From Heptranchias perlo (lineage: Eukaryota), in NCBI RefSeq assembly GCF_035084215.1, contig NC_090358.1, positions 11,532,001 through 11,596,000 on the forward strand: a stretch of 64,000 nucleotides of DNA, read 5' to 3'. This document shows, in pieces, positions 4,923 through 56,120 of the stretch. Every line of letters starts with the position of its first letter. Position 1 is the first letter of the stretch. The notes below the pieces were generated by a model. The model was not told the DNA's origin. It worked only from the letters and a program-made list of their open reading frames with translations, and did not search any database. The translations under genes were made by a program, and so were the position numbers.

Positions 4923-5044
4923 GAAAGAAGGGGTAAGGATGGCAGTTACAGGAAGTAGACAATGTATCCTCAAAGGACTCACAAAAGAGGGACAAAAGTG
5001 GCCATATGTTCTAACTATGAGTAATAAGCGAAATAATTTAAATT

Positions 5045-5410
5045 GATTCTTATTGAAAGAAGTGAATGATATGTCCTGTCCATTATATCCTGTAACGGAC
5101 TCTTTCAGGAGTCCAAGTTTTTCATGTTCACTGCCCTCTCTGGAAGACCAGCCCAAGTGATCATCACTCTTTGTGTGAAGAAGTTCTTTCTGATATCTGT
5201 CCCAAACTTTCCTTTCACCAGCTTGATCTATGCCCCTTGATCTAGTATTCTGGCATAACTTGAAGTGGTGCTCCAGATTAACCTTATCCATATAATTTAC
5301 CATTTTGTATACCACTATAAGGTGCCTTCTCAGTCACCTTCTGTCAAGGCTAAAGAGCCCCAGCTTCTTCTGACATATTTTGTAACTCAATCGTTTGATG
5401 TGAGGGAGCA
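5045..5410 (-). mobile_element. Old CR1 LINE 3' fragment
   Basis: VYKMVNYMDKVNLEHHFKLCQNTRSRG resembles the CR1 ORF2 C-terminus. Confidence 0.6.
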
Positions 5411-5577
5411 GCGTCGTGTAAAAGGAAACCAGAAAGTTATATGATTCAGTTGGCAATACAGAGATGAAAACTGTTCACATTGGACCCAAAGAGAATAAGC
5501 TTGAAGGGCTTTTCTCATTCATGTTTTATACACTTGGCCAATACCCACCAGTCTCTTTTATCCCTTTGCTATTATAG

Positions 5578-5848
5578 GAAGCGAAAGATCAAGGCACTGA
5601 ATGAAGCAGAGGACAAGAATGCAACAGAGAAAGCGTCAATAAAGAAGGCAATGATGCAGTATGCAGCTGAAGCTGACAACTCTGCAGAGACAGACCAGAT
5701 GTTACAGACCAACCAGGCTTACATTTCCATGAACTCGGTACCGAGTTCTTCTCCAAAAATCTCACCCAAACCTGGAGAGATCATGATCGAGTGGAAGGAT
5801 GGAAATATAAGTACCCTTTTCATGGATGTAAAGGAAGATGATCTGTAA
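5578..5848 (+). CDS. SLC51B: SLC51B last coding exon (cytoplasmic tail)
   Basis: ttatag| acceptor, phase 2 matching the previous donor; KRKIKALNE...PKPGEIMIEWKDGNISTLFMDVKEDDL*, with a basic stop-transfer cluster after the TM. Confidence 0.85.
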
Positions 5849-13004: not shown

Positions 13005-13395
13005 TTAAAATATTTTAAATCCTTTAAGTAAGGTTAGCGTGGGAGTTCTGCGCTTGGTTTGAGCTCTTGCTGACTTCACAGTAACAAGTTTAGCTGAAGT
13101 GATGGTAGGAATTTCCTTGTAGGGTGCAGTAGACAGTCCTTGTGTGCCAAATACAGGTGAGTGATGTTTAAGGGCCTGGGCAAAGGCAGGAGGATGGGCA
13201 ATACTCAACACGGGCTTCTCCTCAGAAATAAAGAGAGGTCTGACAGGAAGGTGACGCTCAGTCTCTCGTCTCACCTCACGAATCAATTCGTGGAACACAT
13301 GCTGCACAGACTCAAAGTCCAAACAGGCAGATACTTCATAAAATGAGCAATTATATTTGGATGTCAGTGACAGTCCATCAGACTTGCTTACCTGT
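13005..13395 (-). CDS. RASL12: RASL12 exon 5 (last)
   Basis: tttag| acceptor; QVSKSDG...FYEVSACLDFESVQHVFHE (G5 box)...RPLFISEE...AKLVTVKSARAQTKRRTPTLTLLKGFKIF*, the RASL12-type C-terminus without CAAX. Confidence 0.97.
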
Positions 13396-14527
13396 CTAAA
13401 AACAAAAAATTGATTTTTTTTTTTCAAAACATGGTAATAGTAATAGTTAATAAAACGCAAATATCTAAAACACTTTCAGACATTATGGATCTTAAAATGT
13501 AGATTATTTGAAATAAATTTATATTGTTTAGAACGCTACCATGCTTTGATAATTTCTAATATAGATGTTTAAGATAAAATCACAGTCCACCATTTTGTTT
13601 TGATGTGTGCAGAAAATAACATAACCAAAGGCTAGCCTCATAACAGACAAACAGTGAGTATTTTGAATTCATAGATATGTTTTCTGCTGAATGGGAACAG
13701 CAGCGCTATCCATTATTGTTACATAAATAAAGAATATCCCTAAGTCCCCAATTCAAATCCCTTTTAAAGAGTGAATCTCCCATCGGAGCTGTGTCAAAAA
13801 GCAAAATTTGAAAGAATCGTGATCAGGGCAATGCAGTGGTCCAATGCACTGATCTATAAAGTGGTGGGACATAGGTGTGCACCTGCAGTATCCCAGATCA
13901 TCAGTTTCCATTCATAACTGTGCCACTGTAGGGAAGTAGGCTATGCACTTCCATCTAGGGGCGGGGATGAGGCATCTTGAGGTAGGTAGTTGGTTACAGT
14001 GGCACCAAAGGCTGGGAAACTGATCACCTACCATCCCTTTTGGCAAGGAATGGTGTGTGGTGCAAGAAGATCAACAGAAAGAAGGGGGTGAAAAATAAAT
14101 ACATCAGGACGGGAGTCTCAACATTGTTTTTGTTTCTCTTTGTCAATATTTATTGACTTTCTGAATATTTTATTTAAATTATGAGTATTGGTGACATCTC
14201 ATAATGGTAGAATAAGGTTGGCAATGTTATACAAGAGATGAACTGACTGTTTCACAGGGCAAGATCCTAATTCATCTTTCACATTTTCCTTTGCAACACT
14301 GATCCAGCTCTGAGGAATGGCAGAGCCCTGGTGGTGACCATATTGTTTCTTGTGACAGATCTTACCGATATCGCATAAAGAGCAAGTTAAAGTGGCAGAG
14401 ACAGATCACAAAGATAAATATGAATGAGGGAGTCCATTTGGCCCGTCTAGCTCATTCTTCACCAGCTTTTACCACATATGCAGAACCAAAAGTCAGTAAG
14501 TGATTCTGTTATCCCACCAGACTCCAA

Positions 14528-16228
14528 GGGCCCGATATTAGGAAGGAGGCGGGTTACCAGCGGAGGGTCGACTGGGCGTGTGGGTAACCCGCCCAGTAAA
14601 ATCGGTGGGTTCCCCACGCGATCGTAAGTAAATTGAAGCCACTTACCTTGGCTTCCGGGTTTCACGCTGGAAAGCTGCGCAGCGGGTGGACTGCGCACCC
14701 GCATCATAGGCTGTCAGCTGGAGGAGCCCTATTTAAAGGGGCAGTCCTCCACCGACTGATGCTACAGAAAGGAGCCAGAATTACAGCATGGTGCAGCCCA
14801 GGGGGAAGGCTGCTCCCAGGTCCTACTAGATGGGGTGAGGAGGAGGGGGAGGACAGAGATCTTCTCCCCGGCGGACGGGAGGAAGTGGCCTGCCTCTGCC
14901 ACCATGAAGGCCTGGCTCGAGGTGGCAGAGGAGGTCACCAGCACCACCAACATATCGCGCACCTGCATACAGTGCAGGAGGCGCTTCAATGACCTAAGTA
15001 GGTCACCCGAAGTGAGTACACTTACTCATTCCCCTGCACTCGGTCTGCCACATCACCACCCCCACTCCACATTCCCTTCTGCACTGCCAACACTACTCTG
15101 TCACCTCACTCCTCACACCCACTCAAAGCTCATCCTCATCTTACCTGCACTTACTCACCTCGCCAGTACTCATCCCACCACTACCATTCAACCCAATCCT
15201 CATACAATCTCATGGCTCTATCTCATACTCACCCTCTGATGCATCTCTTTCACGGTCAGCCTCACCCAACCTGCCACTACCTGTGCTGCAGCCACAGGGC
15301 ATGCATCATATATGTGCAGTAGGAAGCGTAAGGCAAACGTGTCATGAGCATGAAGGGGATGCACAAGGGTGTTTGAGAGTTTGTCATGGTTTTTACTTAT
15401 ATTTGATTTCTGATCAACTCACATTACATATTATATTGTCACCACTACTGCCACGTCTTGGCCATTCTTGACCGGCTTATGCAATAATGCCCTTTCATGA
15501 GGTTCTCCGTGAACACCCTTGATACCACCCATTGGGTCACCCTACAGTGGGTGTATGTGTAGTTGCACGACTACTTTGTGCAGGTGCCTGTTGCGCAGCA
15601 CTGTGTTGTGTAGCTCCACGTGGTGGAGGTGGACGGCATGCCTGGGGAGGCTGGTGATGTTGCTCGTCCTCCAATGGAGTGATGAATGCAGCAATGGAAT
15701 CCCCCCCCTCTAACCATCCTGACGGTGTGAGTGTGTTTGGACAGCAGAGTTTAGGGTATGATTTAATAATTTGGGGTGTGGAGACAATGGTGTGGCAGGC
15801 AAAACTTTGTCTGAGGTGACAGAGTGCCCTGCTGCAATGAATGAGGGTTTACCCCGCACCTGTTAAATGGACCTTAGCAGCTGCCACTGGCTGCTGGCTG
15901 CAACGCGTCTGTTTAAAAGGGAGTGTTTCCCCCAGCATGGGAAACACGCTCTGGGTAGTCCAAAATCCGAATCCTCCTAAAATCTCCAACTAATAAGGTC
16001 TGTAAACGACCTCAAGTACCCAGATAATGATCTTAAGTGGGATCCCGCCGGCTTTGATTGCCGGTGGGAATCTCGCATGCGGGGGCTGCGCGCGCACCGA
16101 TTTGCGACATTGGGGAACCCGGAAGTGGGCGTGTTGGAGCCGGGCTGCGGACCCTCTCCGGGGATCTCCAATTTTAGGAGCCCCCCCCGCCACAAATGCA
16201 CCCGCTCGGCCACCCGAAAATTGACTCC
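14528..16228 (+). mobile_element. Internally deleted PIF/Harbinger transposon with Myb/SANT-like ORF remnant (RASL12 intron 4)
   Basis: Imperfect TIRs gggcccgatatt and aaaattgactcc, TSD CAA; ATG at 14788 MVQPRGKAAPR/LLDGVRRR...KAWLEVAEEV...RTCIQCRRRFNDL, then gtgagt donor. Confidence 0.8.
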
Positions 16229-17147
16229 CAAAGGAGCAAATCATTTTCAAAAATGTTACATGTTCAAGTGGCGATTTAGATCTGACAGTTAGTTTGCTGA
16301 GGTGGAATGTCCAATTCAGTGATCTGTTCCACATAGTGACGTCACTTGAGATATCAAAATGGAATGCAAGTATTTCAAAAGACCTGAATTCATCTGGATT
16401 TCATAAAAAGGAAAATGGGTGGAAAATGTAGCTGATGCCTTTGTTATTGTGAACATATCATTTTACATATGTACACTTGTATGCAGCTCTGAGGAGAGAA
16501 GAGTTCCAAAGACGTCATGACCATAAATAGCTCAAACTCTGCATCTTCACTTTTTTTTTGTTTTTCTTATTTTTCCCTCGCTCTCCTGGAAGCATTGTGT
16601 TTTGTTCAAATTAATTTTCCGGGAACTTTACTGTTTTTATTTTTTATATCAAACTCATGTGAAAAATTGAGGGGGGTGGGTGAAATATACTTTCTGGGTG
16701 AAAATTGGGGGAAAGTGCAACATTACAAAAAAACTCAGTAAAAAGTTTTGTGTGTCTGTTGACTTAAGTCTCCTTTCCTGGTTACATAGTTTTCTAATTT
16801 ATTTAGATTATACAAATTTTTCGATCATGCACTGGAAAATAGATTAGAGAAAATACTACAGTCCACACCAGCTGGTACTACACAGCAGAAAGAAATGTGC
16901 AGATCCAAGTCTCATGAGACTCACAAAGAAATCGCAACAGTACAGAATTCATAGCTGGCAAGTCACTCCATTTGTGGGTTGAAACCAGTTAAAACTCATT
17001 AAGAATAATTTTGGTATCAGGAAATTTATGAGTGAAAATCTCAAAGTGAAGAACTTATTTATAGACTGAGTGGCAATGAAATAAACAAGCCCTTTAAATT
17101 CTGCCACTCCTGAGTCACTCATTTCTATTTTGAATTATATTTCTTAC

Positions 17148-17338
17148 CTGTATCTCTCCATGTCCAGTTTATTCCCCAGCAAAATAATTGGATAGTCATA
17201 TGGTTGTCCTTTGGCATGACTAGAAATTACATTTAGATAATGCAGGCACCCTTCAAAGCTCTTCCTATTATCAATGCTGTAGACGACAATAAATGCATTT
17301 GCCCAGTTCAGGTAACGTTCAGAGTTGATTGGTTTGTC
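17148..17338 (-). CDS. RASL12: RASL12 exon 4
   Basis: DKPINSERYLNWANAFIVVYSIDNRKSF...PIILLGNKLDMERYR (G4 NKLD); AG/GT boundaries, 191 nt. Confidence 0.95.
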
Positions 17339-19252
17339 CTAGTTTTCAAAATATAAATGATTGTTCAGTGTTATGCAGTGTCATAGCAGGTGCATTATTA
17401 ATTTAGAGAGGTATCTGAAAACTACTTGCAAGAACAAACACACACATATCTAAGCAAAGCATAAACATAAGCACAGATACACTAAAACTCATCTTCGTAT
17501 ATATTCATGCATGCAGTACAATACAATATAGCAATTAACAATTATCCAATACAAATTAGATACTGTAGCTTTATTCTAATATTTGAAGAAAAAATACTTG
17601 TTTTAATCATTTGTTTCTAAAATAAATGGAGATAATGTTCAGTGGACTACAAACCTTTTGGCTAGTCACTTGTGTTGGTACAAGGTTAAAAAAAAACAGA
17701 TTTTATGTAATTGCAACTTACAGATTTTGCTGGGCAGTCTGCTCTGAAGCTATGCTTATGCAGCTGTTGATGCATATCTCATTTACAATGAGATTAAATG
17801 GGATAGAGGAGCAAAAAAAATAAATCACTAAAAGTAGCTACATAAGTTGATAAGGCCGTAAAGACTCTTCTCCAGGGCACTCAATGACAGATTAATGGAT
17901 TAGACTACACGCACTTTCTCATTAAAAGTATTTGTTTCGTTTCTTATCTCTCTCTCTTCATGGTCTCCTCTGTGCTTGTGGCAGTTTTTTTTTCATTTCT
18001 ATTCTTCATTTTTTCTCTTGAGTTCAATTTGTGAAAACTACAACTTGTATTGTTTCTGCACAGACAATTGCGCTGTGTTTAAAGACGAAAATACAAACAT
18101 TCTCCTGCGCAGCAACTAACAATACAGAGGTAAGGATTCCTGAAATTGCTATGTGTAAGTATATTTGTGGAGATTTCCTCTGCTAGTTATTTTTGACAAA
18201 ACCATGTTCTAAAGGAATACCATTTTACTGAAATTAAAAGTCTAAAATATCTTCACAAATGCACTCCCAATGTCTTAAAACGTGTTTTGATTTTATAAAC
18301 TACATCAGTGCCCAGAGTTAATTACATACATGGAGTCAAAGTTATTGTATTCGCTGACAATTAATTGAAAGTGAGAAAATTTAAAAATGTGTCTCTCCCC
18401 ATCACAGTGCATTTGAATTTCGTTCTAAAAACTAAAGCAGGCTTTTGAAGCAGAGGTAAAAAAAATATTATGGCAAAAAACGGTCAGCAAACAAGGCAGG
18501 AAAACCTAAAACATGTAAGATAATTAAAAATGCAGATGCAGTAAACAACTGGAAGTTCCTGTGGAAAGTTGAAAATGGGTGTTATTCCTAGAGTATGCAG
18601 TACAGAAGTTAAGTCTCAACAAAGACTTCACCAGGGACATTTGCATTACCACAGTAAATTATCAGTTTATAAGAAATTTGTAGTGTAATAGGCATTAGTG
18701 TTATATCCATAGATTATCTATGACTGCAGATTATAACAAAGCCCTCTAATTTTACTGGACAAATGTCCATTTCATATTTATCCATTATGATCTTTGTTAA
18801 ATGACACCCTAATTGACATAGTTTATTGTTTAATTGTTTTGATAAAGAAAAAGCTAACCAGAAGCAATGTAGTTTCTGTAACTTGTGATGGCAGATGAAG
18901 AATGTATACAAAATGCAATCTTTCATCTGTCATATAAAATACCAAAAAAATACCTTATCCTACTTCCAGAAAATACAGACTGCACTTAGAAAATTGTCAC
19001 TACATTATCTTGTTACTTTAAAACTCTATTAAATGTTGATCTTAAATGTGTCTTGTGTCATTTATTTGGTCTTCAATTGAAAGGGCATAAGTGTAACCTT
19101 GTAGCCAAGTTAACTAGCTTTAAATTAAATAGCCCAGCAACAATGAGGTATTTGAAAAGTTCAACAACTCAATCTCTTAACTGTCCATTTAATCACTTTT
19201 TTTGGTTCCATGGATGCTCAGATGTGAAAAGTTTGGTTATATGAATCTGCAT

Positions 19253-19390
19253 AAAACAATGATGTGGAGATGCCGGTGATGGACTGGGGTTGACAATTGT
19301 AAACAATTTTACAACACCAAGTTATAGTCCAGCAATTTTATTTTAAATTCACAAGCTTTCGGAGGCTTCCTCCTTCCTCAGGTAAATGTT
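19253..19390 (-). mobile_element. Penelope-like element terminal fragment with minimal hammerhead motif (19349-19385)
   Basis: Near-identical to 28369-28455 and 35200-35288; minus strand CTGAGGA-aggaggaagcctcc-GAAAGCTT. Confidence 0.75.
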
Positions 19391-19467
19391 CAGGTAAATG
19401 GGTGTTTTAGTATTGCAGCTACAATGTCCTGCATATTCCCTTCTTCCACTGCAAAAGCCTTTATTAC

Positions 19468-19541
19468 CTGATCGGCTGTATCCATTATTTTTAAGAGGAC
19501 TGGCTGGTTATCCACGATTTCTTCAGTAGTGTAGGTATCCT
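19468..19541 (-). CDS. RASL12: RASL12 exon 3
   Basis: EDTYTTEEIVDNQPVLLKIMDTADQ (G3-like box); ccag| and |gtaata boundaries, 74 nt. Confidence 0.95.
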
Positions 19542-20688
19542 CTGGAACAGAATAATATTGTCAGCAGTGAACGGTTATTGGATCATCAATATCAATCGTA
19601 ACACAATGAAAACAGAAGAGCAAATAATGTATCCATTTGCTCTTCGTTTTATCTTAGATTGCAAAAGCCTTTGTTGAGAAATGTTGACACAGTGACAATT
19701 TACCTCGGTGATAAGTGAGAAAGTATAGGGTTTCTGATAAACACAGAAGTCATTTCCTCTATTCCCACACACACTTGTCACTTTCTTTAAAAGAAATTCA
19801 ATAATTAATACATGACTACATAGGATAGAGTTTCACATTGATACTCTTGAGTTGAATTACTTCAATAATTTTGTATCAGTGCTCTTAAAGGGTGAGATTA
19901 GACAGATTAATATTGTAATAGCCTCAAAAATAGTGTGGACATCAACTGTTCCTGGTATAGAGCAAGGATATGAGTTGATGTTTTGGAAAATTACGGGCAG
20001 GGACTATAAACTATTACAGAATATGTAATTATTTTCCTTCTACAAAAATAATATAACTACAGATAGATTAGCAGCTGTAACCAAACGGATTAGCTGTGGC
20101 ATTTTTACCCACTAAAGATTCTGCCCTGAAGTGTTCGTGTTACAGAAACTTGATTACCGATAGTGCACATGAATTCTCACCACTTGTACTGGTGCGTTAG
20201 GTGAAGTCAACTTTTTTTTTAAAAAAAGCTTTTATTGTCGATTTAATTACTGATGCCTTTTTATAAATAAATCGTCTCAGGAAAAAAAAGCTTAGACGCA
20301 AAGCTCCAGACTCGGTGAGGAACTAACACAAGACAAACAAAAAATGCTTGGAATCATTGTCATTGCATGGGTAGAAAACTTGTCCAGAGACCGGGGTACG
20401 TTTAACAGTTGTTGACTGTCGCTTACTGAACTAATGGGGTCACTTGTTCCCAGACTTACGGCCCCCAACGGGAATATCTGTAGCTGTATTCAAGAAGCAT
20501 TGGACAGACACAAGAAGAGAATTAACTCACAATGCAATGGAAATAACCGCACCGAGACCGGCTGTAGTGGGACTGACCTCAATAGCAGCAAGTTGTAGCT
20601 TGCTAAAAAATTTCCTTAGGTTAGATTTTCATATGAACAGACGGAAAAACATTCTTAGAAATGTGTAAGAAAATTGTACGGCACTTAC

Positions 20689-20745
20689 CTAGGTAAGGAT
20701 CATACTCGCTTATGAATCTTTTCGTGAGAAACTTCACAGTCAGAG
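20689..20745 (-). CDS. RASL12: RASL12 exon 2
   Basis: ALTVKFLTKRFISEYDPYL; tctag| and |gtaagt boundaries, 57 nt. Confidence 0.95.
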
Positions 20746-21152
20746 CTAGAGAATCAAAACATTAGTGTTTAGTCTCACTAAAACTTTGAAAAGCATCAAC
20801 TATAACGTTAACCGGTATAGACTAACTAATCGATGACATAGGACAGCTCTTGGTAATACCACTAACTCCCTGTAATTCAAAGCATGGTCATTCATGCAAT
20901 TCAACTGGGCATTCCTCTGGTCGCTGTCCATTTGCGAAAATTTCCTCTATTTGCTACTTAGCTAACGAACGACATTCTCCTGTTCCTATTCTCTAATTTC
21001 TAACGAAATCGTCACGTCTACGATTTCGCTAGAAATAGCGACCAGTGGAGATCCTCTGGATGGAATGGGAAATGTTCTGACACCAAGCAGTCCCAGTACC
21101 TGTGCAGAAGGTGGGGGACAGATGCGGACAGGAGGAACGGCGAGTCTCTTAC

Positions 21153-21291
21153 CAGATTTGCCCGACCCAGCGCAGCCGAGGATAACGACGTTACATTCCG
21201 AGGTCGGTGCCTGCAGAGCCCTGTCCCGATCCGAGGCGGCGGACAAAGTAAGGACACCGCCGGATCTGACTTTCCCAAACATCGAAGACAT
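21153..21291 (-). CDS. RASL12: RASL12 exon 1 (coding part); five exons total 852 nt = 283 aa
   Basis: MSSMFGKVRSG...ECNVVILGCAGSGKS (P-loop), donor |gtaag; lies in a CpG-richer region at about 21.1-21.6 kb. Confidence 0.95.
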
Positions 21292-29270: not shown

Positions 29271-30638
29271 ATGATGCAGCCTCCAGCAGGTTATGTGCGT
29301 GTGAAAGTGGAGGATGAGCTTTTCACTGTTGAGAAGTGCATGCTGATTGAGAGCAGCGACTACTTCAGGGCTCTCTTTGGGTCTGGCATGCGGGAGTGCA
29401 CTCAGGAGGAGATCCAACTGCAGGAGTTACCGGCCCGTGGCTTTGGTGTAATGCTGAAGGTTCTAAGAGGCGATCAGCCTAGTCTGAACAGCGAGGAAAT
29501 CCTTGATGCCATTGAATGTACAGCGTTTCTACTAGTGAAGCCTCTGACAGAGCATCTTATTCATGTTGTCAGTTCAAATAACTGCACTCTAATGTTCCAG
29601 GCTGCAGCTACGTATGGGGTATTCGACTTGATTCATGCTTCAGCTCTGTTTATGAGGGATGTTTATGCCAATGTAAGGGAAGATTTGAGCTTTTTGCCTG
29701 AAGATCAGTTGGATTATATTGAATCCCTGTCTCCCAGTACATTTGTGGCCGTGGCCACTCACTCACCCTCAGTTGAACTTTTGGATGATATTTCTAGAAC
29801 CATCTGCTATTTGGATGAAGAAGAGAACAAGTAGAGAACCTTGACCTCATTACCAGACAAAGCCAGCACTTCTCTGGCCGGCATTGCTGTGCTGGACAAC
29901 AATATCTATATAGTTGGAGGGGTTGGTGGACTGAGGAAGCAGGTAGTAAAGCTTAGTTTTTGCTACGATACTGAAAGAAATAGCTGGAGCGAATTTTCAA
30001 GTCTTCAGCATCTTCGTTACAACCTAACACTGACAGGACAAGATGGTTGCCTCTTTGCCATGGGAGGAATGTACAAGAATACAATGCTTGCAACTGTGGA
30101 GAAGTACCATGTGGCATCCAACACATGGTCCTTCGCTGCACATCTGCCTAGACCTGGAGAGGGTATAGCGTGTACACGCGCAATGGGCAGGATCTTCATA
30201 TGCCTTTGGTTACCAATGGACACCACGGACATCTACGAGTACAGGACCCACAAAGATGAGTGGCTGTTGGTAACCACACTAAAGCGCCAACAAAGTTATG
30301 GTCATTGCATGGTCGCACATATGGACAATCTGTATGTGATGAGAAACGGACCAGCAGATGATTTTTTGAGGTGCATGATTGATTGCTTTAATCTCACTAG
30401 GCAACAATGGACTGCTTTGTCTGGCCAGTATGTGAACAGCAAAGGTGCACTTTTCACAGCGGCCATCAAAGGCGATACAGTTTTTACAGTAAACAGAGCG
30501 TTAACCTTGGTTTATAATATACATGAAGATAAATGGAAGCCAGCAAAGGAAGAGGCTGGATTTCCTCGATGTGGTTCTATTCATACCTTCTTACTTAGGC
30601 TGCCAAAGAATAGACAGTCTGCTCTGCACCAAAACTAA
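29271..30638 (+). pseudogene. KBTBD13: KBTBD13 (BTB-BACK-Kelch, single exon) with one in-frame TAG at 29832-29834; 455 codons if read as Trp. Pseudogene status uncertain
   Basis: SDYFRALFGSGMRE (BTB), SRTICYLDEEENK*RTL, QSYGHCMVAH, RNGPADDFL, GQYVNSKGALFTA, EAGFPR all match human KBTBD13; both ORF halves are in one frame; syntenic with RASL12. Confidence 0.9.
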
Positions 30639-31369
30639 GTTTGGGAAGATATTTGTAATGTCCCTCATGTGCCTTTTAATTCTAGAAACTGATACAAGGA
30701 TAAGGTAGGCATGGGGAAAGGACATTCTGCAAATCTAACTCAACCAATTGTTTAGATTCATCTGTCGGACCTGCTCAAATTATTTTTATCTTTCACTTGT
30801 CCAGGCATTAAAGTGGTCGCACAATTATCCGAATGAGGAATCTGTCCATTTCCTTTTCTGAATGCTTCAATTAAATCATCATTCACAGGTTCAGAAGGTA
30901 ATTCATTCCATAAGTCTTCTAAATGCCAAATTCACAGTTTCCTTAGTTTACAATCATGCCCCCGATTTTCTTCTCCTTGGGAATGTGAATCCTAGATGAT
31001 TAACTCCTGAGAAAGCTAAGATAACGCATATCGATGCTAAACTAAACAAAAGATGATCAGAAAAATAGTTTCGTATGGGAGTCTTGCTTCTAGCATCTGT
31101 CCACCACTCTTCAAATGCTACACCAAAGTATTAAAAGAAAAAAAAAAGTCATTTTCATGATGCTTTCTTCTGACTTGGAGCTGGAAATTTAAGATTCACC
31201 TGCCAATTCTGTAAACTTCCTTCACCAACAACAATTAACCTCTAATTGACGTCAGGATTTAAAGCAATTAGTCTTTGTGCCCTTAAAGGGACAGGCCGAT
31301 TAAACACTATTGCAGCTTAGCGGCAGAATAAAACATTGTGCATTACATGGTCTAATACTCTTGTTGCTT

Positions 31370-31445
31370 TAACAACAGCAACTTGCATTTATATAGCACC
31401 TTTAATGTAGTAAAATGTCCCAAGGCGCTTCACAGGAGCGTTATC
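31370..31445 (-). mobile_element. DeuSINE/L2 3' tail fragment
   Basis: acaacagcaacttgcatttatatagcacctttaatgtagtaaaatgtcccaaggcgcttcac. Confidence 0.65.
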
Positions 31446-31905
31446 AAATCGTCTGACTTGCAGTGAGCAATGCTACATAAGATCTGCTGGTTGCTCACTC
31501 ACAAAACAATAATTGGTGCTTCTGCATATATCCATTGTTTACATCGAGTCGATCTTTATTAAACTAGTATCCAACCATAAATGTAAAATTCTCTTAATTC
31601 TCTTACTTCAGCAAGTTAGACTTCAGAACTAGAAAAACACAGCTGCTTGTAGTTTGTTCTGCATACTGTATTTTCGCACTGATTTCAACCGTTACCTATT
31701 ACATGATGTTTGAACATCAGCCCACAACGGTCTACTGAGCTTCTAAACATCAGAGTTGTGGCTTCTGATCCTTCTAATCCATATAAGAATGACTGTCATT
31801 TTCAGTATCTCTGTTTTGGTCCATAGTACACTTTAAACTATTTTTCAGTGATATTAATTAGATCTATGGTCCCACTCCCAGCAAACACCTTTAGGAAGAA
31901 ATAAT

Positions 31906-32244
31906 GGGGTGAATTTTAACTCCCACCATTACGGGTGGGAGAGAGTTGAGGGAGGGGGAGGGGTGGGGTGGGGTTAAGTCGGCAAATTTGCGAAACCCGA
32001 TCCCATCCCGCCACAAACACGCCTGCATCCGTTTTAACCGCGGTGGGTTTGGGGATGTCCGAGTAACTCACTCTGGAGAGGCGGGTCCGTGATTATAATA
32101 TGTAAATGAGGCTCCAGGGCTCGGGAAACCTGGCAGCTAAAGGGAAAAAAATGATAATGATGCCCCGCTTCCGGCATTTCCAGGCTTCCTCCCCGCAAAC
32201 GCATGGCCCCGCTCCCTCCCCACCTCCCTGTAAATATCGGGGCC
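31906..32244. mobile_element. Harbinger-type MITE
   Basis: Ends ggggtgaatttt and aaatatcggggcc, TSD AAT. Confidence 0.65.
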
Positions 32245-32284
32245 AATATTTCTGGCATTTGTGTTCATGGTATCATGGTAAGTA

Positions 32285-33188
32285 CAGCATAGGAGGAGGC
32301 CATTCGGCCCATCATGCCTGTGTCAGCTCTTTGAAAGAGCAATCCAATTAGTCCCACTCCCCTACTCTTTCCGCATGGCCTTGTAAATTTTTTCCCTTCA
32401 AGTATTTATCCAATTCCCTTTTGAAAGTTACTATCGAATCTGCTTCCACCATCATTCCAGGCAGTGCATTCCAGATCATAACAACTCGCTGCATTAAAAA
32501 AATGTTTCCTCATGTCGCCTCTGGCTGTTTTGCCAATCACCTTAAATCTGTGTCCTCTGGTTACCGACTCTTCTGCCAACGGAAACAGTTTCTCCTTATT
32601 TATTCTGTCAAAACCGTTCAAGATTTTGAACACCTCTATCAAATCTCCCCTTAACCTTTTCTGTTCTAAGGAGAACAACCCCAGCTTCTCAAGTCTCTCC
32701 ACATAATCTAAGTGCCTCATCCCCGGTACCATTCAAGTAAATCTCTTCTGCACCTTCTCTAAGGTCTTGACATCCTTCCTAAAGTGTGGTGCCCAGAATT
32801 GGACACAATACTCCAGTTGAGGCCTAACCAGTGTTTTATAAAGGATTAACATTACCTCCTTGTTTTTGTACTCTATGCCTCTATTAATAAAGCCCGGGAT
32901 CCCATATGCTTTTTTAACAGCCTTCTCAACTTATCCTACCACCTTCAAAGATTTGTGTATGTGCACCCCCAGGTCTCTCCTGCACCCCCTTTCAAATTGT
33001 ACCATTTAGTTTACATTGCCTCTCCTCATTCTTCCTCAAAGTGCGTCACTTCACACTTCTCTGCGTTAGATTTCATCTGCCATGTGTCTGCCCATTTCAC
33101 CAGTCTGTCTATGTCCTCCTGAAGACTGTTACTATCCTCTACACTGTTTACTACATTTCCGTGTTTTGTGTCATCTGCAAACTTTGAA
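32285..33188 (-). mobile_element. CR1 3' fragment
   Basis: KFADDTK...WQMKSNAEKCEVTHF; YVERLEKLGLFSLEQKRLRGDLIEVFK. Confidence 0.92.
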
Positions 33189-35199
33189 GACCTCGGTGAT
33201 TCATTAGGACTTTTCTTGTTACTCACCCCATTCCTTAAACTATTTTCTCTTAACATTTTTAAACCCGTTTTTATCATCATAAGTTGTCCTACCTTCCATA
33301 CAAACAGTACCATACTCTTGGTGAACTGCCTGGTCACCTGTCCCTACTAATTTAAATACTTGCCAATCACAATTTCAGCTCCCAGTGTCAGCAAGTGTTA
33401 GACCTTAATCTATTTAAATATTATCCATACCCCATTTGCCCATCTCCACAAATTCCACCCCCGCACCACTCCTGTTATCCAGAGGGGAATGTGAACTTGC
33501 CCTAATTGTTCATTTTTTTCCCAACGTAACTTTGAACTGTATGCACTGGGGGCTGTACCTTTCTTATTGATCATGCCTGGTTAGTCACAGGATAGTTTTG
33601 GATGAGGATTTTTTTCCAGGATTTAGTATCCGTAAGGATTTTCACATTTTCCATTTGGAACCATTACAGCTGGTTTATTTTTGCAGCACCGCAGTTTGCT
33701 TCAAATGTATTTCTGAGAATTATTTTCAAGTGCTATTAGGTTGAAAATAGTGTTCTAATTGGCAGTTGGATGTAAGCCAAACAGTAAAAGGAATCTAATC
33801 TAAAGCACCTTAAGGAAAACATTTTAACCCTTTTCTGAATAGATTGGTTTCAATACATATAAAAATACACAAACACATATATAGCTATTCAGATATCTAC
33901 CTTGTAGATAATTATACCTGTACAAGTATGATCCCATCTATTTTGTAAAAGTAATAGTAGAGCCTGGTATTATTAAGTAGAAGTAAAGTTGTGTTGGAGA
34001 GTGTTCCCTCCATGATGCAAATTTGTTAGGACGTTTGAAATTCCCTCACCTTGGAATTTACCAGATTACTCATGCCTGTTGTGGTCAGAATAGGACAGAC
34101 TGGGAGCAACACGCCCTTTGATTGAAGAAAATAAGAAAGAAAGAAAATATACAGTTTCCTGAATTGTGCCAAATGTCATTCATTTGGACACAGAGATGAA
34201 CTGGGTGGAAGGTGCTGCAGATAATTTCATTATAATTCGAGTTTTATCTTGTTGAAATCCTTCCATTTGTCCGGTAGCTCGAGGGAAACATCTCCATATA
34301 TAGATCTGTGTCAGCCTTGCCAAATGAGCTGGATCTAAGACCTGGATTTTTTTTGTATAACTGTTTGCCTGCCCCGATAATTTAAGAATCTGACGACCAG
34401 TGCTAAGGAGATTCAGGGTGGAGGTGATGGCGATGGTGATGGTATCTCTCTGCCATCTCTCCAATGTTTCAAACTTATTATAGACAATCCGTTCCGTTTT
34501 TGGCAATAGATGGGCCAGATCAGAAACAAAATCTCCCTCCCACCACAATCCCGGATTAACCTGAAACCAGAAATTCACACTTTATGCTTTTAAAAAACAA
34601 AATAGCAAGCACATTGTTGACTAAAGCAGAGGAAAAACAGGATGAATCTATTATAATCATGTTATATTCATTTTTCATGCACAAGCCAAGTTCAATTGAA
34701 TTCTAGAACCGTTTATGCAACCAGAAAAGAAAATATAATCTTAGACTTGGATTTAGAATCTTATGCTGTGAGTAAATCTGTAACTTTACTGCGTCAATGT
34801 ATTTTTAAACTGCACACAAGCCAAAAACAAATTCAAACCTGTAAGCATGGGTATTGCAAATGCACAGTTGGGATTAAGTCTGGCATTATGGTGTGCACAC
34901 ACATTTCACATACAATAAAGACAGTATGACCATTGGTCACTGGTGGGACACTGAAAATGATAGAGTGTGTGGTGAGCTGCAAGTTTTATAAGTTGAAATA
35001 CATCATGATAGAACACCCACAATGCCATTCTCAATGTCCCTTTATCATGGCAGGTGACGGCTGGTGCCCATGGCTGAAGCCATAGGGATAAAGGAAACTG
35101 CGATACACTTTCTGCAATGGTCCTTTTACATTTGATCTCTAGTGATCTACCAAAGGAGATGTCTGGCCTCGTGCTGGGTATTTGTCTGCCTAATCCTTT

Positions 35200-35290
35200 T
35201 TGTAAACAATTTTACAACACCAAGTTATAGTCCAGCAATTTTATTTTAAATTCACAAGCTTTCGGAGGCTACCTCCTTCCACAGGTGAAT
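35200..35290 (-). mobile_element. Penelope-like terminal fragment, hammerhead core mutated (CTGTGGA)
   Basis: Near-identical to 19297-19385. Confidence 0.7.
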
Positions 35291-36624
35291 TGAGAAAAGC
35301 TCAGCCATATGCTCAGACACGCAGCGGTAAATGTAAAGAGCCTTAGTTTTCTTGGACTTAGTTGTTTTCTCATTGTGATTTGGTCAGTTTGAGAAATTTT
35401 AAACATTATGGGTTCAGATCGTACAGACTATCAACACTGAGTCAGGTTCACTCATTTCTATCTATCTCCAACTCCTCTACCCAGCCATAATCTATATGAT
35501 CATGGCCATTAAGTGCAGATGCCCACCCACCGCCAGAAATCAGAATATCACCTCCTCACACACACTAAATGGTAATAATAATAATTGTTTTTTTTTTCCA
35601 GAAGAATTGAGAGAAATTGGAACTAACCATCACAGTCACCACTTGCAGTAAAATGCAAGGGTCAGCTCAAACACATACATTGAGAATGCCAAACCCCACA
35701 TAAGTTTCAGTGATTCTGCCCCTCCCTGTTGGATTAATGCTGGAGAGGATGTGGCCAAGTATGGCACACCTTCTGGTCCTGCCCCTAAATCTAACCATTT
35801 CGGAAAAGATCTGCCACAAAGGGCACGGCCAGCGTTGACATCTCCTCAGAGCTATTCTCGTCTGTAGGCCTGCTCCCAGGGCTGCAAAGCATACCTGAGA
35901 TGCAAAGACTACCACAACTCCCACTGCTGGTGTCGACGTATCTGTTCCCCGCTATGGCGAAATCTTACCCCTCCCACCTTATTTATGTGGATTAAGCAGT
36001 CGTAGGGCATATGCCAGTCATCTGCCTAGAACTGGGAAAGTGCATGCAGCCTGGACCTCCTGTCCTAGAGGCCTCTACAACAAGTCTCCTCTTACAAACC
36101 CCACTACATACTCCTGTAAAAGAATGGATAGGTTGATTCTTGACTGACATGGACAGTGCACCATCCATGATCCTCAGCTGTCCATAAAGTGACCAAGACC
36201 AAAAAGCACCTCTTGAAATTGTAAGATAGTCCCTGTACCCCCACATCCTGATGTGGTGCCTGCCTGCCCCATGCCAGCCTTCATCCTGAAGTAAGTTAAA
36301 CTACTATACAAACACACACAACTATGCTGACAGTGTGCTCTCCTGTAAGTCAATGCTGAGAATATATATCACCAAATATACTGACTGAGTGTTTAAACTG
36401 CTCCTATCTGCGTCTGGCTGATGTATACAATAGGCAGGAATTCTCACAAGAAAATGAATGGCAGCGAGTGGGAGAGGGAATTGGGACATGAATGGCAATG
36501 AAACAAAGAAAAAAGGGGACAAAGAAAGGCAAGAGGGAAGGGATAGAAGCTTGGAGCAGTTCTTTGGGAGGAAAGGGGAAAATTGGCAGCAGTGCTTTGG
36601 GGTAGCAGAGATAGGAGAATGGCA

Positions 36625-37235
36625 ACATTAACTGAGGGGGAATGAGAGGGAGAGTGCCACCATTAACTGAGGGGGCAGGGAGAAACTAGTGCCAGAATTA
36701 ACTAAGGGGGCGGAATTAACTGAGGGGACGGGGGAAACTAGTGCCAGAATTAACTGAGAGGACGGGGGGAATTAGTGCCAGAATTAACTGAGAGGACGGG
36801 GGGAATTAGTGGCAGAATTAATTGAGAGGACGGGGAAAACTAGTGCCAGAATTAACTGAGAGGACGGGGGGAATTAGTGCCAGAATTAACTGAGAGGACG
36901 GGGGGAATTAGTGCCAGAATTAACTGAGGGGACGGGGGGAATTAGTGGCAGAATTAATTGAGAGGACGGGGAAAACTAGTGCCAGAATTAACTGAGAGGA
37001 CGGGGGGAATTAGTGCCAGAATTAACTGAGAGGACGGGGGGAATTAGTGCCAGAATTAACTGAGGGGACGGGGGGAATTAGTGCCAGAATTAACTGAGGG
37101 GACGGGGGGAATTAGTGCCAGAATTAACTGAGGGGACGGGGGGAATTAGTGCCAGAATTAACTGAGGGGACGGGGGGAATTAGTGCCAGAATTAACTGAG
37201 GGGACGGAGGAAATTAGTGCCAGAATTAACTGAGG
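36625..37235. repeat. 34-bp G-rich minisatellite, about 16-17 copies
   Basis: Unit gaattaactgag(a/g)ggacggggggaattagtgcca, head-to-tail, degenerate at the left edge. Confidence 0.97.
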
Positions 37236-48495: not shown

Positions 48496-51171
48496 AGAAA
48501 GCGGGTTCACTGACAACAGTTGAGAGATAGAATCATTTGGCACTTTTCACAAATGAATATAGTATTATTATTTGGAAGTCTCAGCCCATCAAAGATCCTT
48601 CTTTAGCTCCCGCCATTTCAGCCCCTCATCCAAGAGCCTGCTCAGCCTTTTAACTGCATGGAGCTACTTAAATAGGAAAGTTGCACCCTTGCTCTATCCC
48701 CTTCCCGAATATTCTGGACTCTCTGGTCTATCTGCCACCCCTGCTGTTGGAACACCTTCCCGTATCTCATCAGCATTACTTAAATTAGCTGACCCTCGAA
48801 TTTCTGACGGAGGCAGCTTCCCCCAGCTTCAGTGGGTGTAAGTCCCACTCCACCACACTCACACTGGCAGAGAGGGGCCTCAGGAATCTCCAGCCCATCA
48901 TAATGAGCCCTCAGCACCCACATCACAAAACAGGAAATCTGCTTGTTACAGTCCCCTTCCATATACATTCTCTGGGAGCAGAAGCAGCCATCAGAGTGGA
49001 AGTGACTAATAGTAGAATTACATGGTCATAAAAACTGACCTTTGAGTCACTGGAAAGTTTTGAAGCAATTTGAAGGATACATGAAAGTGGGATTGATGGT
49101 TTGGGAGGTGTCATTAACCTCATGGTTACAACGGAGTTGGAGGTCACATTTTTGACTTTGTTCCTGTTAGTTTTACACAGATTAGTCAAGACCCTTGCTC
49201 CCCATGAATTTGATACATATTAATTTTCCTACCTGCTGAAATATATATCGTACTATTAGAACGGTATGTCAGTGAACCATACAATGGGGCAGTATGGATA
49301 ATGTGCTAATATAAGAACACATTCCACTATTACTTTGATCTATGTGTCATGAGAAGGACACAATAATTGAATTTGCTTTGTGTTGATGTCTTTCAAAGTA
49401 TCCTAAAGAAGGCACTAGTTTAATTTTATCAATGTGAGGTATGAATTCTTCCACATATTTTGGCAGCACCATAGTAAAGTATTTTTTTTAAAGCAGTGAA
49501 TCTCCCTTGGTGTTACTTATGATAAGTTGGGGCATACTCTATTTTATAAGGATAGAAGCATTGAGGTGTAATGCACAGTGCTTTATTATTAATTTATTCT
49601 ACTGCTAATGTGCAGCTATGTGTAACTGGCATATTATTTTAAGGCCACGCGATATAATTTCTGTGCCTTCCTAAGGTCAGTTAGAAGTTAATTGCTCTTA
49701 AGCAAAGCCTGACGTCAATTAAAGTTTCAAAGAAAACAGCAGGAAATGACTGGCTCTCTTTCCTTTTAGTTTTTTTTAAAAGTGTGAAGTTGAAATTTGT
49801 ATATGCGACACCTGCAGTGTGATGGACGTCTTTCAAATCTTTATATATTTCACTTTCGACATGTGTAAATATCTCTGTTGCAGCATTCACAAAGGACACA
49901 ACCCATGTAAACAAGAGAAAAGATGGCAATCCTGAAAGTGAATTTTAAAATACATCCGGCTGTGCTAGCAATACCCTGTAAATCTCTTTCATCTGAAAGG
50001 AAAGCTATGTTGTGTTTCGCACGTTGACATATAAAAGTTAATTACATAAAGTATTTTAGTGCATTAATCTAAAATCTGGATTTTCTCCTATTACTTCCTA
50101 TGGAAACAAAGGCTGGGTAATTAAATACAATAGTGGCTTGTTGTAACACAGCGTTTAGTACAAGCCAGAGAGTACAAAGGACAGATTGTCCCACAAAACC
50201 ATTATCAAAACAAATGTATACAGCATCCAGATTTATGAGTAACATTGTAAAATCTTGCACCCAATATTGAATTATTTTAGCCAATTGTTTAAAATGCACA
50301 GGTTATAAATAGTGGCATTAATTGTGACTTTGGCACTTATTTCAGTACTTAACTAATCCTTAAATACTAAAATATGAAAACTGTAAATACTTAACTGTGC
50401 AAAATACTTAGCTGTACAAAAGTCTAAATTCCCAGTTTTCTATGATCTATGTTTTAAATTAAAAGGAACTTGCTTAACTGAATTTATTCACTGTCTCAAA
50501 GTAAATGTAGATGTTTTGTGGAATTCAGATTGTTTATTATCCTTTTGTCTTGTGAACTTCAGCAGAGTTTGGTCTTTAATAGAAATGGGAAGGAGACTGG
50601 TCTCCTGACTCAAAGTTCAGGCCTCTCCTGTTTAGTGTTTAATATTGGTAAATGTCTGATTCAAGTCCTGATTGCTGAATCTAAGGTTCTCTTGGAAAAC
50701 TAAATGATGCAAACTCAATCAGTGCACTTAAAATCTGAGTTGCCTTTGACTCATCTCTGTCTCGCTCCAGAACGAACTCCGAGTTTGGAAGTTCACTGGG
50801 CTTTAAGTAAGGATGCAGGCTTCAGTCCTGAACTCTATGCTCCATAAAACACGGCTGCCATCTCCCGTGTCTATTCTTTTCCGTGGCCAGTTGACAGTCC
50901 CGGCACATGGTTTTGCCTTGCTAGTTATGTGAGGATTGGCTGAAGAGTTTTGAAAACAAATTACTCCTGCATGCATGTGATTGTTTTATTTTAAACTGCA
51001 CGAGGGTGCAAGCTGGCCACAAAATTCTCCCTATGGCCTGTATTAAAAAGTGCCATAGAATAAATGGGTAGCTTTCAGAGCTGACAAGTAGAAGGATATA
51101 ATTGAAAGGGAATTTTTAATACCAAATGGTTCAATTGTACTTAAGAACTGATATGATATTTTATTCTAATA

Positions 51172-51490
51172 TGTGCCAGTTTAGTGCAGTTGATAGCACT
51201 CTCACCTCTGGGTCAATGACTTGTGGCTTCATGTCCCACAGCAGGATTTGAGTGCACAATCTAGACTGGCAATCCAATGCAGGCCTGAAGAAGTAGTGTA
51301 TTGTCAGAGATGCTGCCCTTTGAACAAGTCTTTAAGCCAAGGTGGAGGTTCAATATCCCATGGCACTGTTTGAAGAGGAGGGAATACTCCCTGTGTCCTA
51401 GCCAACACATCTCCCTCAACCTACATCACAAAAAAAGATAAACTGACCATTCATCTCATTGCTGTTTATGGGGTGTTGGTATGCAAATTA
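51172..51490 (+). mobile_element. Old DeuSINE, 3'-truncated
   Basis: Aligns by eye to 26319-26645 (gatagcactctcacctctg...gtcccac...gtgtcctagccaaca...ccctcaac...cattcatctcattgctgttt). Confidence 0.7.
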
Positions 51491-51803
51491 GTTTAACAAC
51501 AAATTATCTTATTAGTGCTTTATTTACCAAGAAATTATAGTTTTGGTTCATATGTTTACCAATAGATTACGATAATGCTTCATTGGTTTATCAAAAGTTA
51601 CAGCTTTAGCTAAATAAATTTATCAGCCGGCTATGGCTTTGGTTCATACCCATCTCTCCATTACTTTGATTAAATACATCACTTTTTTATTATGAGAAGG
51701 ATTGCGGGATATATACGAATTTCTGAGATTGAGATCCATTTTATCTTTTTTCCTACAGGTCTCGATACACTGGAGTTTGCACATTCTGTGCGATTAAGAA
51801 AAA

Positions 51804-51861
51804 ATGTATGGGTTGAAGAGAGAGCCTTTTGGTTGGCTCATTCTATGTGTGCTGCTGCAAG
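51804..51861 (+). CDS. Signal-peptide exon of a ricin-domain gene (exon begins 51759)
   Basis: Strong acceptor ttttatcttttttcctacag|; MYGLKREPFGWLILCVLLQ(G); donor AG|gtaaag, phase 1, compatible with the exon at 60553. Confidence 0.7.
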
Positions 51862-51980
51862 GTAAAGACTGCTGAATACTTGAAGAGGGGGGTGTTCTGA
51901 AACATTTAACAACAATTTACATCTATATACTGTGCCTCATATGGAAATGATATCTTAGAGTAGCTTACAGGTGCAGAGGA

Positions 51981-54900: not shown

Positions 54901-56120
54901 ACCTGGATCTACACTCAGGTTCCTATCCCCCTGCCAAACTAGTTTAAACCCTCCTCAACAGCAAACCTCACCACAAGAATATTGGTCCCGGCCCTGTTGA
55001 GATGCAACCCATCTGGTTTGTACAGGTCCCACCTCCCCAGAACCAGTCCCAATGCCCCAGCAATCTAAAGCCCTCCCTCCTGCACCATCTCTCCAGCCAC
55101 GCATTTATCTGCTCTATCTTCCTATTTCTATACTCACTAGTGCATGGCACTGGGAGTAATCTGGAGATTACTACCTTTGAGGTCCTGCTTGTTAATCTCT
55201 TTTCTAACTCCTTAAAATCTGCCTGCAGGACCTCATCCCTCTTTCTACTTATGTCGTTGGTACCGATATGGACCACGACCTCAGGCTGTTCACCTTCCCC
55301 TCCCAGAATGTTCTGCAGCCGCTCAGTGACATCCTTGACCCTGACACCAGGGAGGCAACTTACCAAGCTGGAATCATGTCTGCGGCCACAGAAACGCCTG
55401 TCTGCTCCCCTAACTATAGAATCCCCTATCACAATTGCTCTCCTGACGTTTCTCCTCCTCCCCTGTACAGTTGAGCCACCCTTGGTGCTATGGTCTTGGC
55501 TCTGGCTGCACTCCCCAGAGAAACCCTCTCCCCCACCAGTATTCAGAATTGAATACTGGTTAGAGAGTGAGACACCTTCAGGGGACTCCTGCAGTACCTG
55601 CCTGGTCCTCCTTGTCTGTCTGGCGGTCACCCAGTCCCTCTCTGTCTGCACTCTCTTAAGCTGCGGGGTGACCACCTCCTGAAACATGCTATCCACAAAA
55701 CCCTCAGCCTGGCGGATGCACTGCAGTGACGCCAGCTGTTGCTCAAGCTCCGAAATCCGGAGCTCGAGCTCCTCCAGCTGACGACACTTCCTGCACCTCT
55801 GGTTGTCCAGGGCATGGGAAGCATCCTGGAGTTCCCACATGGCACAGGATGTGCACTCGACGGGTCTGAGCTGACCGGCCATGCCTCGATTTATTACATT
55901 AACTGAACTTAACTGGAAATAAACGAAAGACTTAAAAAAAAGACACTCACCAGAAAAAGAAACACTCACCAGCTACCAGCCAATCAGCTCCTTCTCTTCT
56001 AACTGACGTCACTTTTGATCTTCTCACCTCTCTCCCTGAAGCCCCTCGCTCTTTATCCAATCCGATGCTCCGCCCCGAACTCCAACCAGGTCCGCTCACC
56101 TTACCTCAGGCGCTCCAGAG
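51981..56120 (-). mobile_element. Near full-length CR1 LINE (ORF1 + frameshifted ORF2), antisense in an intron
   Basis: ORF1 CxxC..CxxC, coiled coil, GDS...GTND esterase; ORF2 pieces 54879-52059 with APE and RT motifs; tail ttctatgatttctatgat. Confidence 0.95.
54968..55882 (-). pseudogene. CR1 ORF1 (zinc finger/leucine zipper + SGNH esterase), frameshifted near the C-terminus
   Basis: MAGQLRPVECTSCAMWE...CRKCRQLEELELRISELEQQL...AIVIGDSIVRG...HIGTND; the DGLH motif is out of frame. Confidence 0.88.

What the first reader, a model, noticed from the sequence alone, without database searches (positions are those of the whole stretch)
29820..29846. KBTBD13 interrupted by a single amber codon at a conserved Trp
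Seen: ...GAG AAC AAG TAG AGA ACC TTG..., with both halves in frame and no other stop or frameshift in 455 codons. Established: human KBTBD13 reads LDEEEDAWRTL here, so the change is TGG>TAG. The Kelch motifs that I recall hosting NEM6 myopathy residues (xRY, NSK, VNR) are retained downstream. Inference, four options: (a) assembly error or heterozygous null; (b) very recent pseudogenisation of a muscle Cul3 adaptor; (c) a BTB-BACK-only protein, since the stop falls just before the Kelch propeller and an intronless mRNA escapes EJC-dependent NMD; (d) A-to-I editing, since UAG is ADAR's preferred triplet and UIG decodes as exactly the missing Trp, as at the HDV amber/W site. I see only a weak local hairpin (caag...cttg), and the TAG-A context is not a classic readthrough signal.
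Basis: partly seen in the sequence, partly recalled or inferred. Interest (0 to 1): 0.7.

Follow-up and report, generated by a model that had tools for sequence, protein, structure and literature searches.

The report
Broken spare copy of shark gene
The stop codon in this shark muscle gene is real in the sequence, but it most likely sits in one of two nearly identical side-by-side copies of a three-gene block while an intact copy exists, so it is an ordinary freshly broken duplicate or an assembly echo, not RNA editing.

Summary
Observation confirmed: TAG at 29832-29834 breaks an otherwise intact 455-codon KBTBD13 at a Trp kept in 131 of 131 homologues. The read-through protein with Trp188 is already in NCBI/UniRef letter for letter, so an intact version exists. 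The window spans a tandem-duplication junction: SLC51B exons for residues 144-305 lie at 0.3-5.8 kb and those for residues 1-143 at 51.8-60.9 kb, around RASL12 and KBTBD13. Heptranchias perlo records on a contig of the same length list identical SLC51B and RASL12 proteins under interleaved accession sets, implying two loci. Best reading (0.6): a very young segmental duplicate whose KBTBD13 took a nonsense mutation. Rivals: a false duplication with a heterozygous null (0.18), or a base error (0.12). Cis editing is unsupported: the A lies in a hairpin loop, the fold z is -0.75, and 48 of 60 control adenosines have equal or stronger partners. The stop lies in the propeller's second strand, not before it, and Pfam finds no BACK domain. 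Reads were unavailable. Low interest.

The parts
29271..30638 (+). KBTBD13 coding frame, single exon, 455 codons plus stop; the disabled copy ('copy A')
   Evidence: best hits named KBTBD13 at 90%; single colinear tblastn hit
29832..29834 (+). Premature TAG at codon 188 (Trp in all homologues; A at 29833)
   Evidence: the Trp version is in the collection
29271..29834 (+). Predicted 187-aa truncated product: BTB (residues 9-98), helical region to about 152, and one strand of the propeller
   Evidence: Pfam; model; exact sequence not in the collection
29835..30638 (+). Kelch propeller remainder, 267 codons, still open; first in-frame Met is residue 264
29823..29848 (+). Weak local stem-loop (3 bp + 4 bp) with the TAG in an 8-nt loop
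   Evidence: unpaired probability of A29833 is 0.82
313..5848 (+). SLC51B-like gene, upstream copy: last three coding exons (blocks 313-438, 3450-3539, 5579-5845; residues 144-305)
   Evidence: Identical to record P0134, with residue 186 split by a splice junction; OSTbeta Pfam match
13005..21291 (-). RASL12, five coding exons (21291-21154, 20746-20690, 19542-19468, 17338-17147, 13394-13008), intact
   Evidence: 283 of 283 residues identical to record P0258; named
30639..51803 (.). Interval that must hold the duplication junction; no N, and no Pfam-level exon of another host gene found
   Evidence: 167 of 167 non-repeat ORFs of at least 38 aa listed; no hit reached a gathering cutoff; exact breakpoint not located
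51804..60923 (+). SLC51B-like gene, downstream copy: first two coding exons (51804-51863, 60555-60923; residues 1-143)
   Evidence: Identical to record P0134

Best explanation
A block of at least about 64 kb carrying SLC51B-like, RASL12 and KBTBD13 was duplicated head-to-tail very recently in the sharpnose sevengill shark. The window holds the end of one copy, the junction, and the start of the next. In the upstream copy a single G>A transition turned Trp188 (TGG) into TAG. The other copy keeps Trp188 and supplies the protein, so the stop is sheltered by redundancy. This is the first step of ordinary duplicate-gene decay. Shown: the stop; the rotated exon order; an intact identical protein on record; duplicate accession sets for both neighbours. 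Inferred: that the intact record is the second copy on the same chromosome, that the duplication is biological rather than an assembly product, and that the truncated 187-aa product has no role.
For: (1) Exact look-up finds the 455-aa Trp188 protein in NCBI and UniRef on one contig of 33,574,966 b. The two halves, the Gln reading and the one-Met-shorter form are not found, so the look-up is specific. (2) SLC51B exons are in rotated order, all on the + strand: residues 144-305 at 313-5845 and residues 1-143 at 51804-60923. (3) In the H. perlo records on a contig of that same length, the SLC51B-like protein has two non-adjacent accessions (XP_067827520...523) and RASL12 at least four (...521, 522, 524, 525), each set one identical protein and interleaved. 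The other shark and ray RASL12 sequences listed carry at most one XP accession per species and isoform. (4) All window exons match those records: RASL12 283 of 283, SLC51B 305 of 305 counting the splice-split residue, KBTBD13 454 of 455. That is one amino-acid-changing difference in about 2,435 nonsynonymous sites, d about 4e-4 (95% CI 1e-5 to 2.3e-3). (5) No rate excess against Pristiophorus in either half, 8 of 8 relative-rate tests with p at least 0.61. (6) No N in the window, whereas false duplicates are most often separated by a gap (PMC9516828 passages).
Against: The second KBTBD13 copy was never seen as DNA: only one copy lies in the window and the intact record's accession is masked. 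That it is 'copy B' is therefore inferred, and I cannot show the window is from the same assembly as the records. Accession interleaving is indirect evidence for two loci. Near-identity is equally what a false duplication looks like, and PMC9516828 notes that some false duplicates are joined without an N gap. A first amino-acid-changing hit is nonsense only about 5% of the time, though the case was selected for being a stop. The window has more private changes at conserved Kelch columns (8 of 178) than the other 12 sharks (1 to 5), but the intact record shares all of them, so they predate the stop. The breakpoint was not found.
Confidence: 0.6

Rival explanations
1. No biological duplication. 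The two haplotypes of one locus were assembled in tandem, or the window is another haplotype, and TAG is a real heterozygous null allele beside a TGG allele.
For: The copies differ at allele-like levels. Heterotype false duplication is the main kind (PMC9516828 passages). Knockout mice survive to 9 months with a cardiac deficit (PMC10100581 passages), so a carrier is plausible.
Against: No gap in the junction interval (0 N). False duplication favours divergent regions, yet about 1,040 codons differ by one amino-acid-changing site.
Confidence: 0.18
2. The A at 29833 is a consensus base error in one copy of a near-identical (real or false) duplicate, and both copies are TGG.
For: It is the only coding difference found. 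Near-identical duplicates are hard to polish and the site is in a purine-rich run (inference).
Against: It is a clean transition with no indel in any of the 11 coding blocks. Long-read consensus errors are mostly indels (recalled).
Confidence: 0.12
3. The TAG copy is expressed and its 187-aa BTB-bearing product dimerises with, or competes with, full-length KBTBD13 for CUL3, buffering the doubled dose.
For: The BTB domain and following helices end before the stop. BTB mediates CUL3 binding (PMC4067060 passages). The gene is intronless in human (PMC7672584 passage), so EJC-dependent decay would not apply.
Against: There is no sign of time for selection (one difference). The stop leaves a dangling propeller strand. 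The truncated protein is not in the collection. A long 3' UTR can still trigger decay (recalled).
Confidence: 0.05
4. The stop is repaired by A-to-I editing (UAG to UIG, read as Trp) or by ribosomal readthrough.
For: The UAG triplet has a non-G 5' neighbour and editing would restore the right residue. The Kelch half is still intact.
Against: The A is in a loop (unpaired probability 0.82) and flank pairing is at the 33rd percentile of 361 coding adenosines. The best sense-strand partner within 21.7-40 kb is -28.4 kcal/mol, and 48 of 60 control adenosines do as well or better. The 201-nt fold has z -0.75, with 46 of 200 shuffles as good. None of the 25 longest of 145 inverted repeats in 24-36 kb covers the site. 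ADAR sites have about 25 bp of pairing (PMC3185552 passages). The stop is not conserved. An intact copy makes repair unnecessary.
Confidence: 0.03

Closest known systems
Young duplicated (non-processed) pseudogene in a tandem segmental duplication
   Same: Duplicated with its neighbours and their introns; one disabling point change; an intact twin; no measurable decay yet
   Different: Nothing of kind. The biological reality of the duplication is not yet shown.
False heterotype or homotype duplication in genome assemblies (Ko et al. 2022, PMC9516828)
   Same: Adjacent near-identical copies giving duplicate gene models
   Different: No assembly gap between the copies within the window; read depth and read-pair criteria are untested
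Vertebrate KBTBD13 (BTB-Kelch CUL3 adaptor; NEM6 gene)
   Same: Orthologue: 90% to sawshark, BTB plus Kelch, single coding exon, divergent from RASL12, motifs at 249, 391 and 409 kept
   Different: This copy is truncated at codon 188. NEM6 alleles in the passages read are dominant missense changes, not truncations.
HDV amber/W editing and fungal premature-stop-correction editing (CHE1, PMC11169179)
   Same: UAG where Trp would restore the frame; 5' neighbour is U
   Different: HDV's A sits in an A-C mismatch within 8 bp of a long rod, while here it is in a loop. Fungal loop editing uses ADAT with fungal cofactors and the stop is conserved across species; here relatives and the same-species record have Trp.

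Membership tests
KBTBD13 orthologue | N-terminal BTB plus Kelch repeats, no canonical BACK | tested here: met
   Pfam BTB 9-98, Kelch_1 E 1e-17, no BACK hit; top fold matches are KBTBD2 and KBTBD4 complexes
KBTBD13 orthologue | Best hits and tree placement among KBTBD13 | tested here: met
   Top hits 90-82% to shark and ray KBTBD13; short branch next to Pristiophorus, outside the galeomorph clade, fork unresolved
KBTBD13 orthologue | Synteny with RASL12 (opposite strand) and a single coding exon | tested here: met
   human arrangement in PMC7672584 passage
Duplicated pseudogene | Disabling lesion in the coding frame | tested here: met
   TAG at codon 188
Duplicated pseudogene | Intact copy in the same species | tested here: met
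Duplicated pseudogene | Arose by DNA-level duplication with flanking genes | tested here: met
   Rotated SLC51B exon order and two accession sets; met at the assembly level only
Duplicated pseudogene | Relaxed constraint after the lesion | tested here: inconclusive
   No rate excess; only one difference from the intact record, so too young to show; no orthologous DNA for dN/dS
Duplicated pseudogene | No functional product | not testable with these tools
   Needs RNA and protein data
False assembly duplication | Assembly gap between the copies | tested here: not met
   0 N in 64,000 bases, which include the junction interval
False assembly duplication | Haploid or low read depth; discordant read pairs; single-copy k-mers | not testable with these tools
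   No reads available; criteria from PMC9516828 passages
ADAR stop-to-Trp recoding site (amber/W type) | UAG with a non-G 5' neighbour, Trp restored | tested here: met
   true of every TGG>TAG change
ADAR stop-to-Trp recoding site (amber/W type) | Target A inside an extended duplex, ideally an A-C mismatch | tested here: not met
   (sense strand, 21.7-40 kb only)
ADAR stop-to-Trp recoding site (amber/W type) | Genomic stop conserved in relatives | tested here: not met
   Trp in 131 of 131 and in the same-species record; caveat: orthologues with a stop might not be annotated as proteins
ADAR stop-to-Trp recoding site (amber/W type) | G in cDNA where the genome has A | not testable with these tools
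   No RNA reads; must be scored per copy, because the intact copy gives G anyway
BTB-BACK-only protein | BACK domain present and stop before the propeller | tested here: not met
   No BACK hit; strands E178-182 and E187-191 open the beta region and Trp188 is in the second (block pLDDT 68-75)

The most novel reading that the evidence does not exclude
Trans-guided natural repair between duplicates. Any antisense RNA running across the intact copy would pair perfectly with the TAG copy's mRNA except for a single A:C mismatch at the amber A. That is the geometry of engineered ADAR guide RNAs (PMC5389476 passages), so the twin could template editing of the stop back to Trp. My folding tests covered only cis partners on the sense strand, so this is not excluded. 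There is no evidence for such an antisense RNA: the human RASL12 isoform starts 0.1 kb upstream and runs away from KBTBD13.
Probability: 0.02. Interest if true: 0.85.

Novelty: new member of a known kind. Interest (0 to 1): 0.17.

Why it matters
As read, it matters little: one more young duplicate with a nonsense hit, and a caution that this region of the H. perlo annotation holds doubled gene models which may or may not be biological. It also sets a trap. If the duplication is real and the stop is fixed in the species, it would be a small natural test of KBTBD13 dose sensitivity. Only the trans-guided editing case would surprise a specialist.

Tried and rejected
Second KBTBD13 copy inside the window: none. 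Overlap of the window's two ends, to measure the repeat unit: no long self-match and only 4 shared 20-mers at one repeat, so the unit is at least about 64 kb. Look-up of the X reading was negative but says little, because none of 272 stored proteins contains X. Cryptic in-frame intron skipping the stop: 134 GT-AG pairs exist by chance; the best-scoring ones use a donor at 29673 with 6 of 9 consensus matches and would delete at least 89 codons, so this was rejected. Re-initiation: the next in-frame Met is residue 264, which loses more than a blade. Breakpoint search by Pfam for other genes' exons in 30.6-51.8 kb: 167 ORFs, only sub-cutoff noise; ORFs under 38 aa and repeat-covered ORFs were not scanned. 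dN/dS could not be computed because no orthologous DNA was available (genome contigs is prokaryotic and was not used; viral and metagenome contigs stayed unchecked). The de Winter 2020 knockout paper was not held. Literature searches found no description of this locus in sharks: KBTBD13 (40 of 200 listed), H. perlo genome (20 of 20 listed), KBTBD13/RASL12/SLC51B (7 of 7), and KBTBD13 with shark terms (15 of 2,645 listed, none with the gene name). Listings only; no supplements were opened, and gene-loss tables there could bear on this.

Full report
1. Observation. The window reads GAG AAC AAG TAG AGA ACC TTG, with TAG at 29832-29834. It splits a single frame, 29271-30638, into 187 and 267 codons, with no other stop. 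Read through with Trp, the 455-aa protein has 579 homologues; the best are shark and ray KBTBD13 at 90-82%, headed by Pristiophorus japonicus. The sawshark protein aligns as one hit over its whole length. Position 188 is Trp in 131 of 131 homologues: the best 120 hits plus 11 cluster members, with one 46-aa stray dropped. It is less pointed than it looks: 5 of the protein's 7 Trp columns are invariant, TGG>TAG is about 3.5-9% of single-base routes to a stop in this gene, and every such change is A-to-I-reversible by definition.

2. An intact version exists. Exact look-up finds the 455-aa Trp188 protein in NCBI and UniRef, on one contig of 33,574,966 bases; the two halves are absent. Controls with Gln or X at 188, or lacking the first Met, are absent too, so the match is letter-specific. 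The X control is weak, since none of 272 stored proteins contains X. From recalled knowledge, NCBI models that bridge a genomic stop carry X, not a real residue, so a Trp implies a genomic TGG; I could not see the record's notes.

3. The surroundings explain it. An exon at 60555-60923 retrieved a 305-aa OSTbeta (SLC51B-like) protein named from Heptranchias perlo, on a contig of the same length. Mapped back, its exons are out of order, all on the + strand: residues 144-305 at 313-5845 and residues 1-143 at 51804-60923, with RASL12 (minus strand, 21291-13005) and KBTBD13 between them. That is the tail of one SLC51B copy and the head of the next. The records agree. The SLC51B-like protein has accessions XP_067827520 and ...523, and RASL12 has ...521, 522, 524 and 525 (display capped at four), each set one identical sequence and interleaved. 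The other shark and ray RASL12 sequences listed carry at most one XP accession per species and isoform. No accession falls between 522 and 523, where this KBTBD13 copy would lie. That fits a copy without a protein model but is weak, because numbering is not positional in every species listed. All window exons match the records: RASL12 283 of 283, SLC51B 305 of 305 counting one residue split by a splice junction, KBTBD13 454 of 455. The window's ends do not overlap and it holds one KBTBD13, so the unit is at least about 64 kb. The junction lies within 30639-51803, has no N and shows no Pfam-level exon of another host gene among 167 ORFs. It was not located.

4. Age and constraint. One amino-acid-changing difference in about 2,435 nonsynonymous sites gives d of about 4e-4 (95% CI 1e-5 to 2.3e-3). 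With the epaulette shark rate of 7e-10 per base per generation (PMC10587355, abstract) that is roughly 3e5 generations (7e3 to 1.6e6). This holds only if the window belongs to the records' assembly, and purifying selection or gene conversion would make it an underestimate. Relative-rate tests against Pristiophorus show no excess in either half (8 of 8 tests, p at least 0.61). Against my reading, the Kelch half has 8 private changes at 178 conserved columns versus 1-5 in the other 12 sharks. The intact record shares them all, and most other sharks have close kin in the set, which lowers their counts. An intact Kelch half is therefore what a very young lesion gives and is no evidence for rescue.

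5. Editing and readthrough. In the 201-nt fold the TAG lies in an 8-nt loop on a 4+3 bp stem; z is -0.75 and 46 of 200 shuffles fold as well. The A is unpaired with probability 0.82 and its flanks rank at the 33rd percentile of 361 coding adenosines. Its best sense-strand partner in 21.7-40 kb (-28.4 kcal/mol) is matched or beaten by 48 of 60 control adenosines. None of the 25 longest of 145 inverted repeats in 24-36 kb touches it. ADAR1 sites have about 25 bp of pairing, and the HDV type 1 site is an A-C mismatch within eight pairs (PMC3185552, passages). Fungal stop-correcting editing favours loops but uses ADAT with fungal cofactors, and its stop is conserved across species (PMC11169179, passages). 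Here no annotated relative has a stop, with the caveat that stop-bearing orthologues may go unannotated. UAG-A is not among the leaky contexts I recall.

6. The truncated product. Pfam finds BTB at residues 9-98 and no BACK; a review says KBTBD13 lacks BACK (PMC4067060, passages). The AlphaFold model (mean pLDDT 76.5) has helices to residue 152 and then strands at 178-182 and 187-191 that begin the beta region; Trp188 is in the second. The top fold matches are KBTBD2 and KBTBD4. The stop is thus inside the propeller. The BTB, which binds CUL3, would be whole, so a dominant-negative fragment is conceivable but unsupported. [quoted passage not shown]

7. Real duplication or artefact. False duplicates show haploid or low depth, discordant pairs and most often a gap, though some are joined without one (PMC9516828, passages). 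Only the gap could be tested, and it is absent. I put a real young duplication with a nonsense hit at 0.6, a false duplication or alternative haplotype with a heterozygous null at 0.18, a base error at 0.12, a functional truncation at 0.05 and editing or readthrough at 0.03. In the first three, an intact KBTBD13 is present and nothing unusual happens.

8. Novelty and verdict. This is a new member of a known kind: a nascent duplicated pseudogene, possibly an assembly echo. Searches found no description of the locus in sharks (listings only). The boldest reading left open is editing guided in trans by antisense RNA from the intact twin, which would place a lone A:C mismatch on the amber A as engineered guides do (PMC5389476, passages). 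No such RNA is known; the human RASL12 isoform diverges from KBTBD13 (PMC7672584, passage). Probability 0.02. Practical warning: reads from the intact copy will mimic A-to-G editing at 29833. Interest 0.17.

Noticed in passing
window 313-5848 and 51804-60923 (+): SLC51B-like exons in rotated order, marking a tandem duplication (real or assembly) of SLC51B-RASL12-KBTBD13; mirrored by doubled NCBI accessions.
   Followed up: yes
window 60555-60923 (+): Shark SLC51B (OSTbeta) carries an extra N-terminal extracellular region of about 125 aa after a signal-like exon, also in Pristiophorus and Heterodontus. It resembles a beta-trefoil lectin domain by recall; my Pfam scans did not detect one, though the Pristiophorus record lists PF24562.
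   Followed up: partly
window 42610-45426 (-): Non-LTR retrotransposon ORF open for 938 codons with endonuclease and reverse transcriptase domains; it lies inside the junction interval and may be young. A role in the duplication was not tested.
   Followed up: partly
window 45964-46735 and 54596-55972: Two related repeat ORF1-like segments (72% identical), the second with a GDSL/SGNH esterase match, beside reverse-transcriptase-like fragments at 52.3-54.4 kb; CR1-type by recall.
   Followed up: no
window 36713-37234: 34-bp minisatellite, 15.4 copies, 94% matches, inside the junction interval.
   Followed up: no
window 29271-30638, residues 410 and 434: Lineage-specific changes next to the NEM6 arginine (Ala410 where most sharks have Met) and Cys434 for Ser, shared with the intact record.
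   Followed up: no
P0126 (cluster of P0006): A 46-aa protein labelled as an Lrp-family regulator is clustered with shark KBTBD13 sequences; it looks like a clustering or labelling error and was dropped from counts.
   Followed up: no
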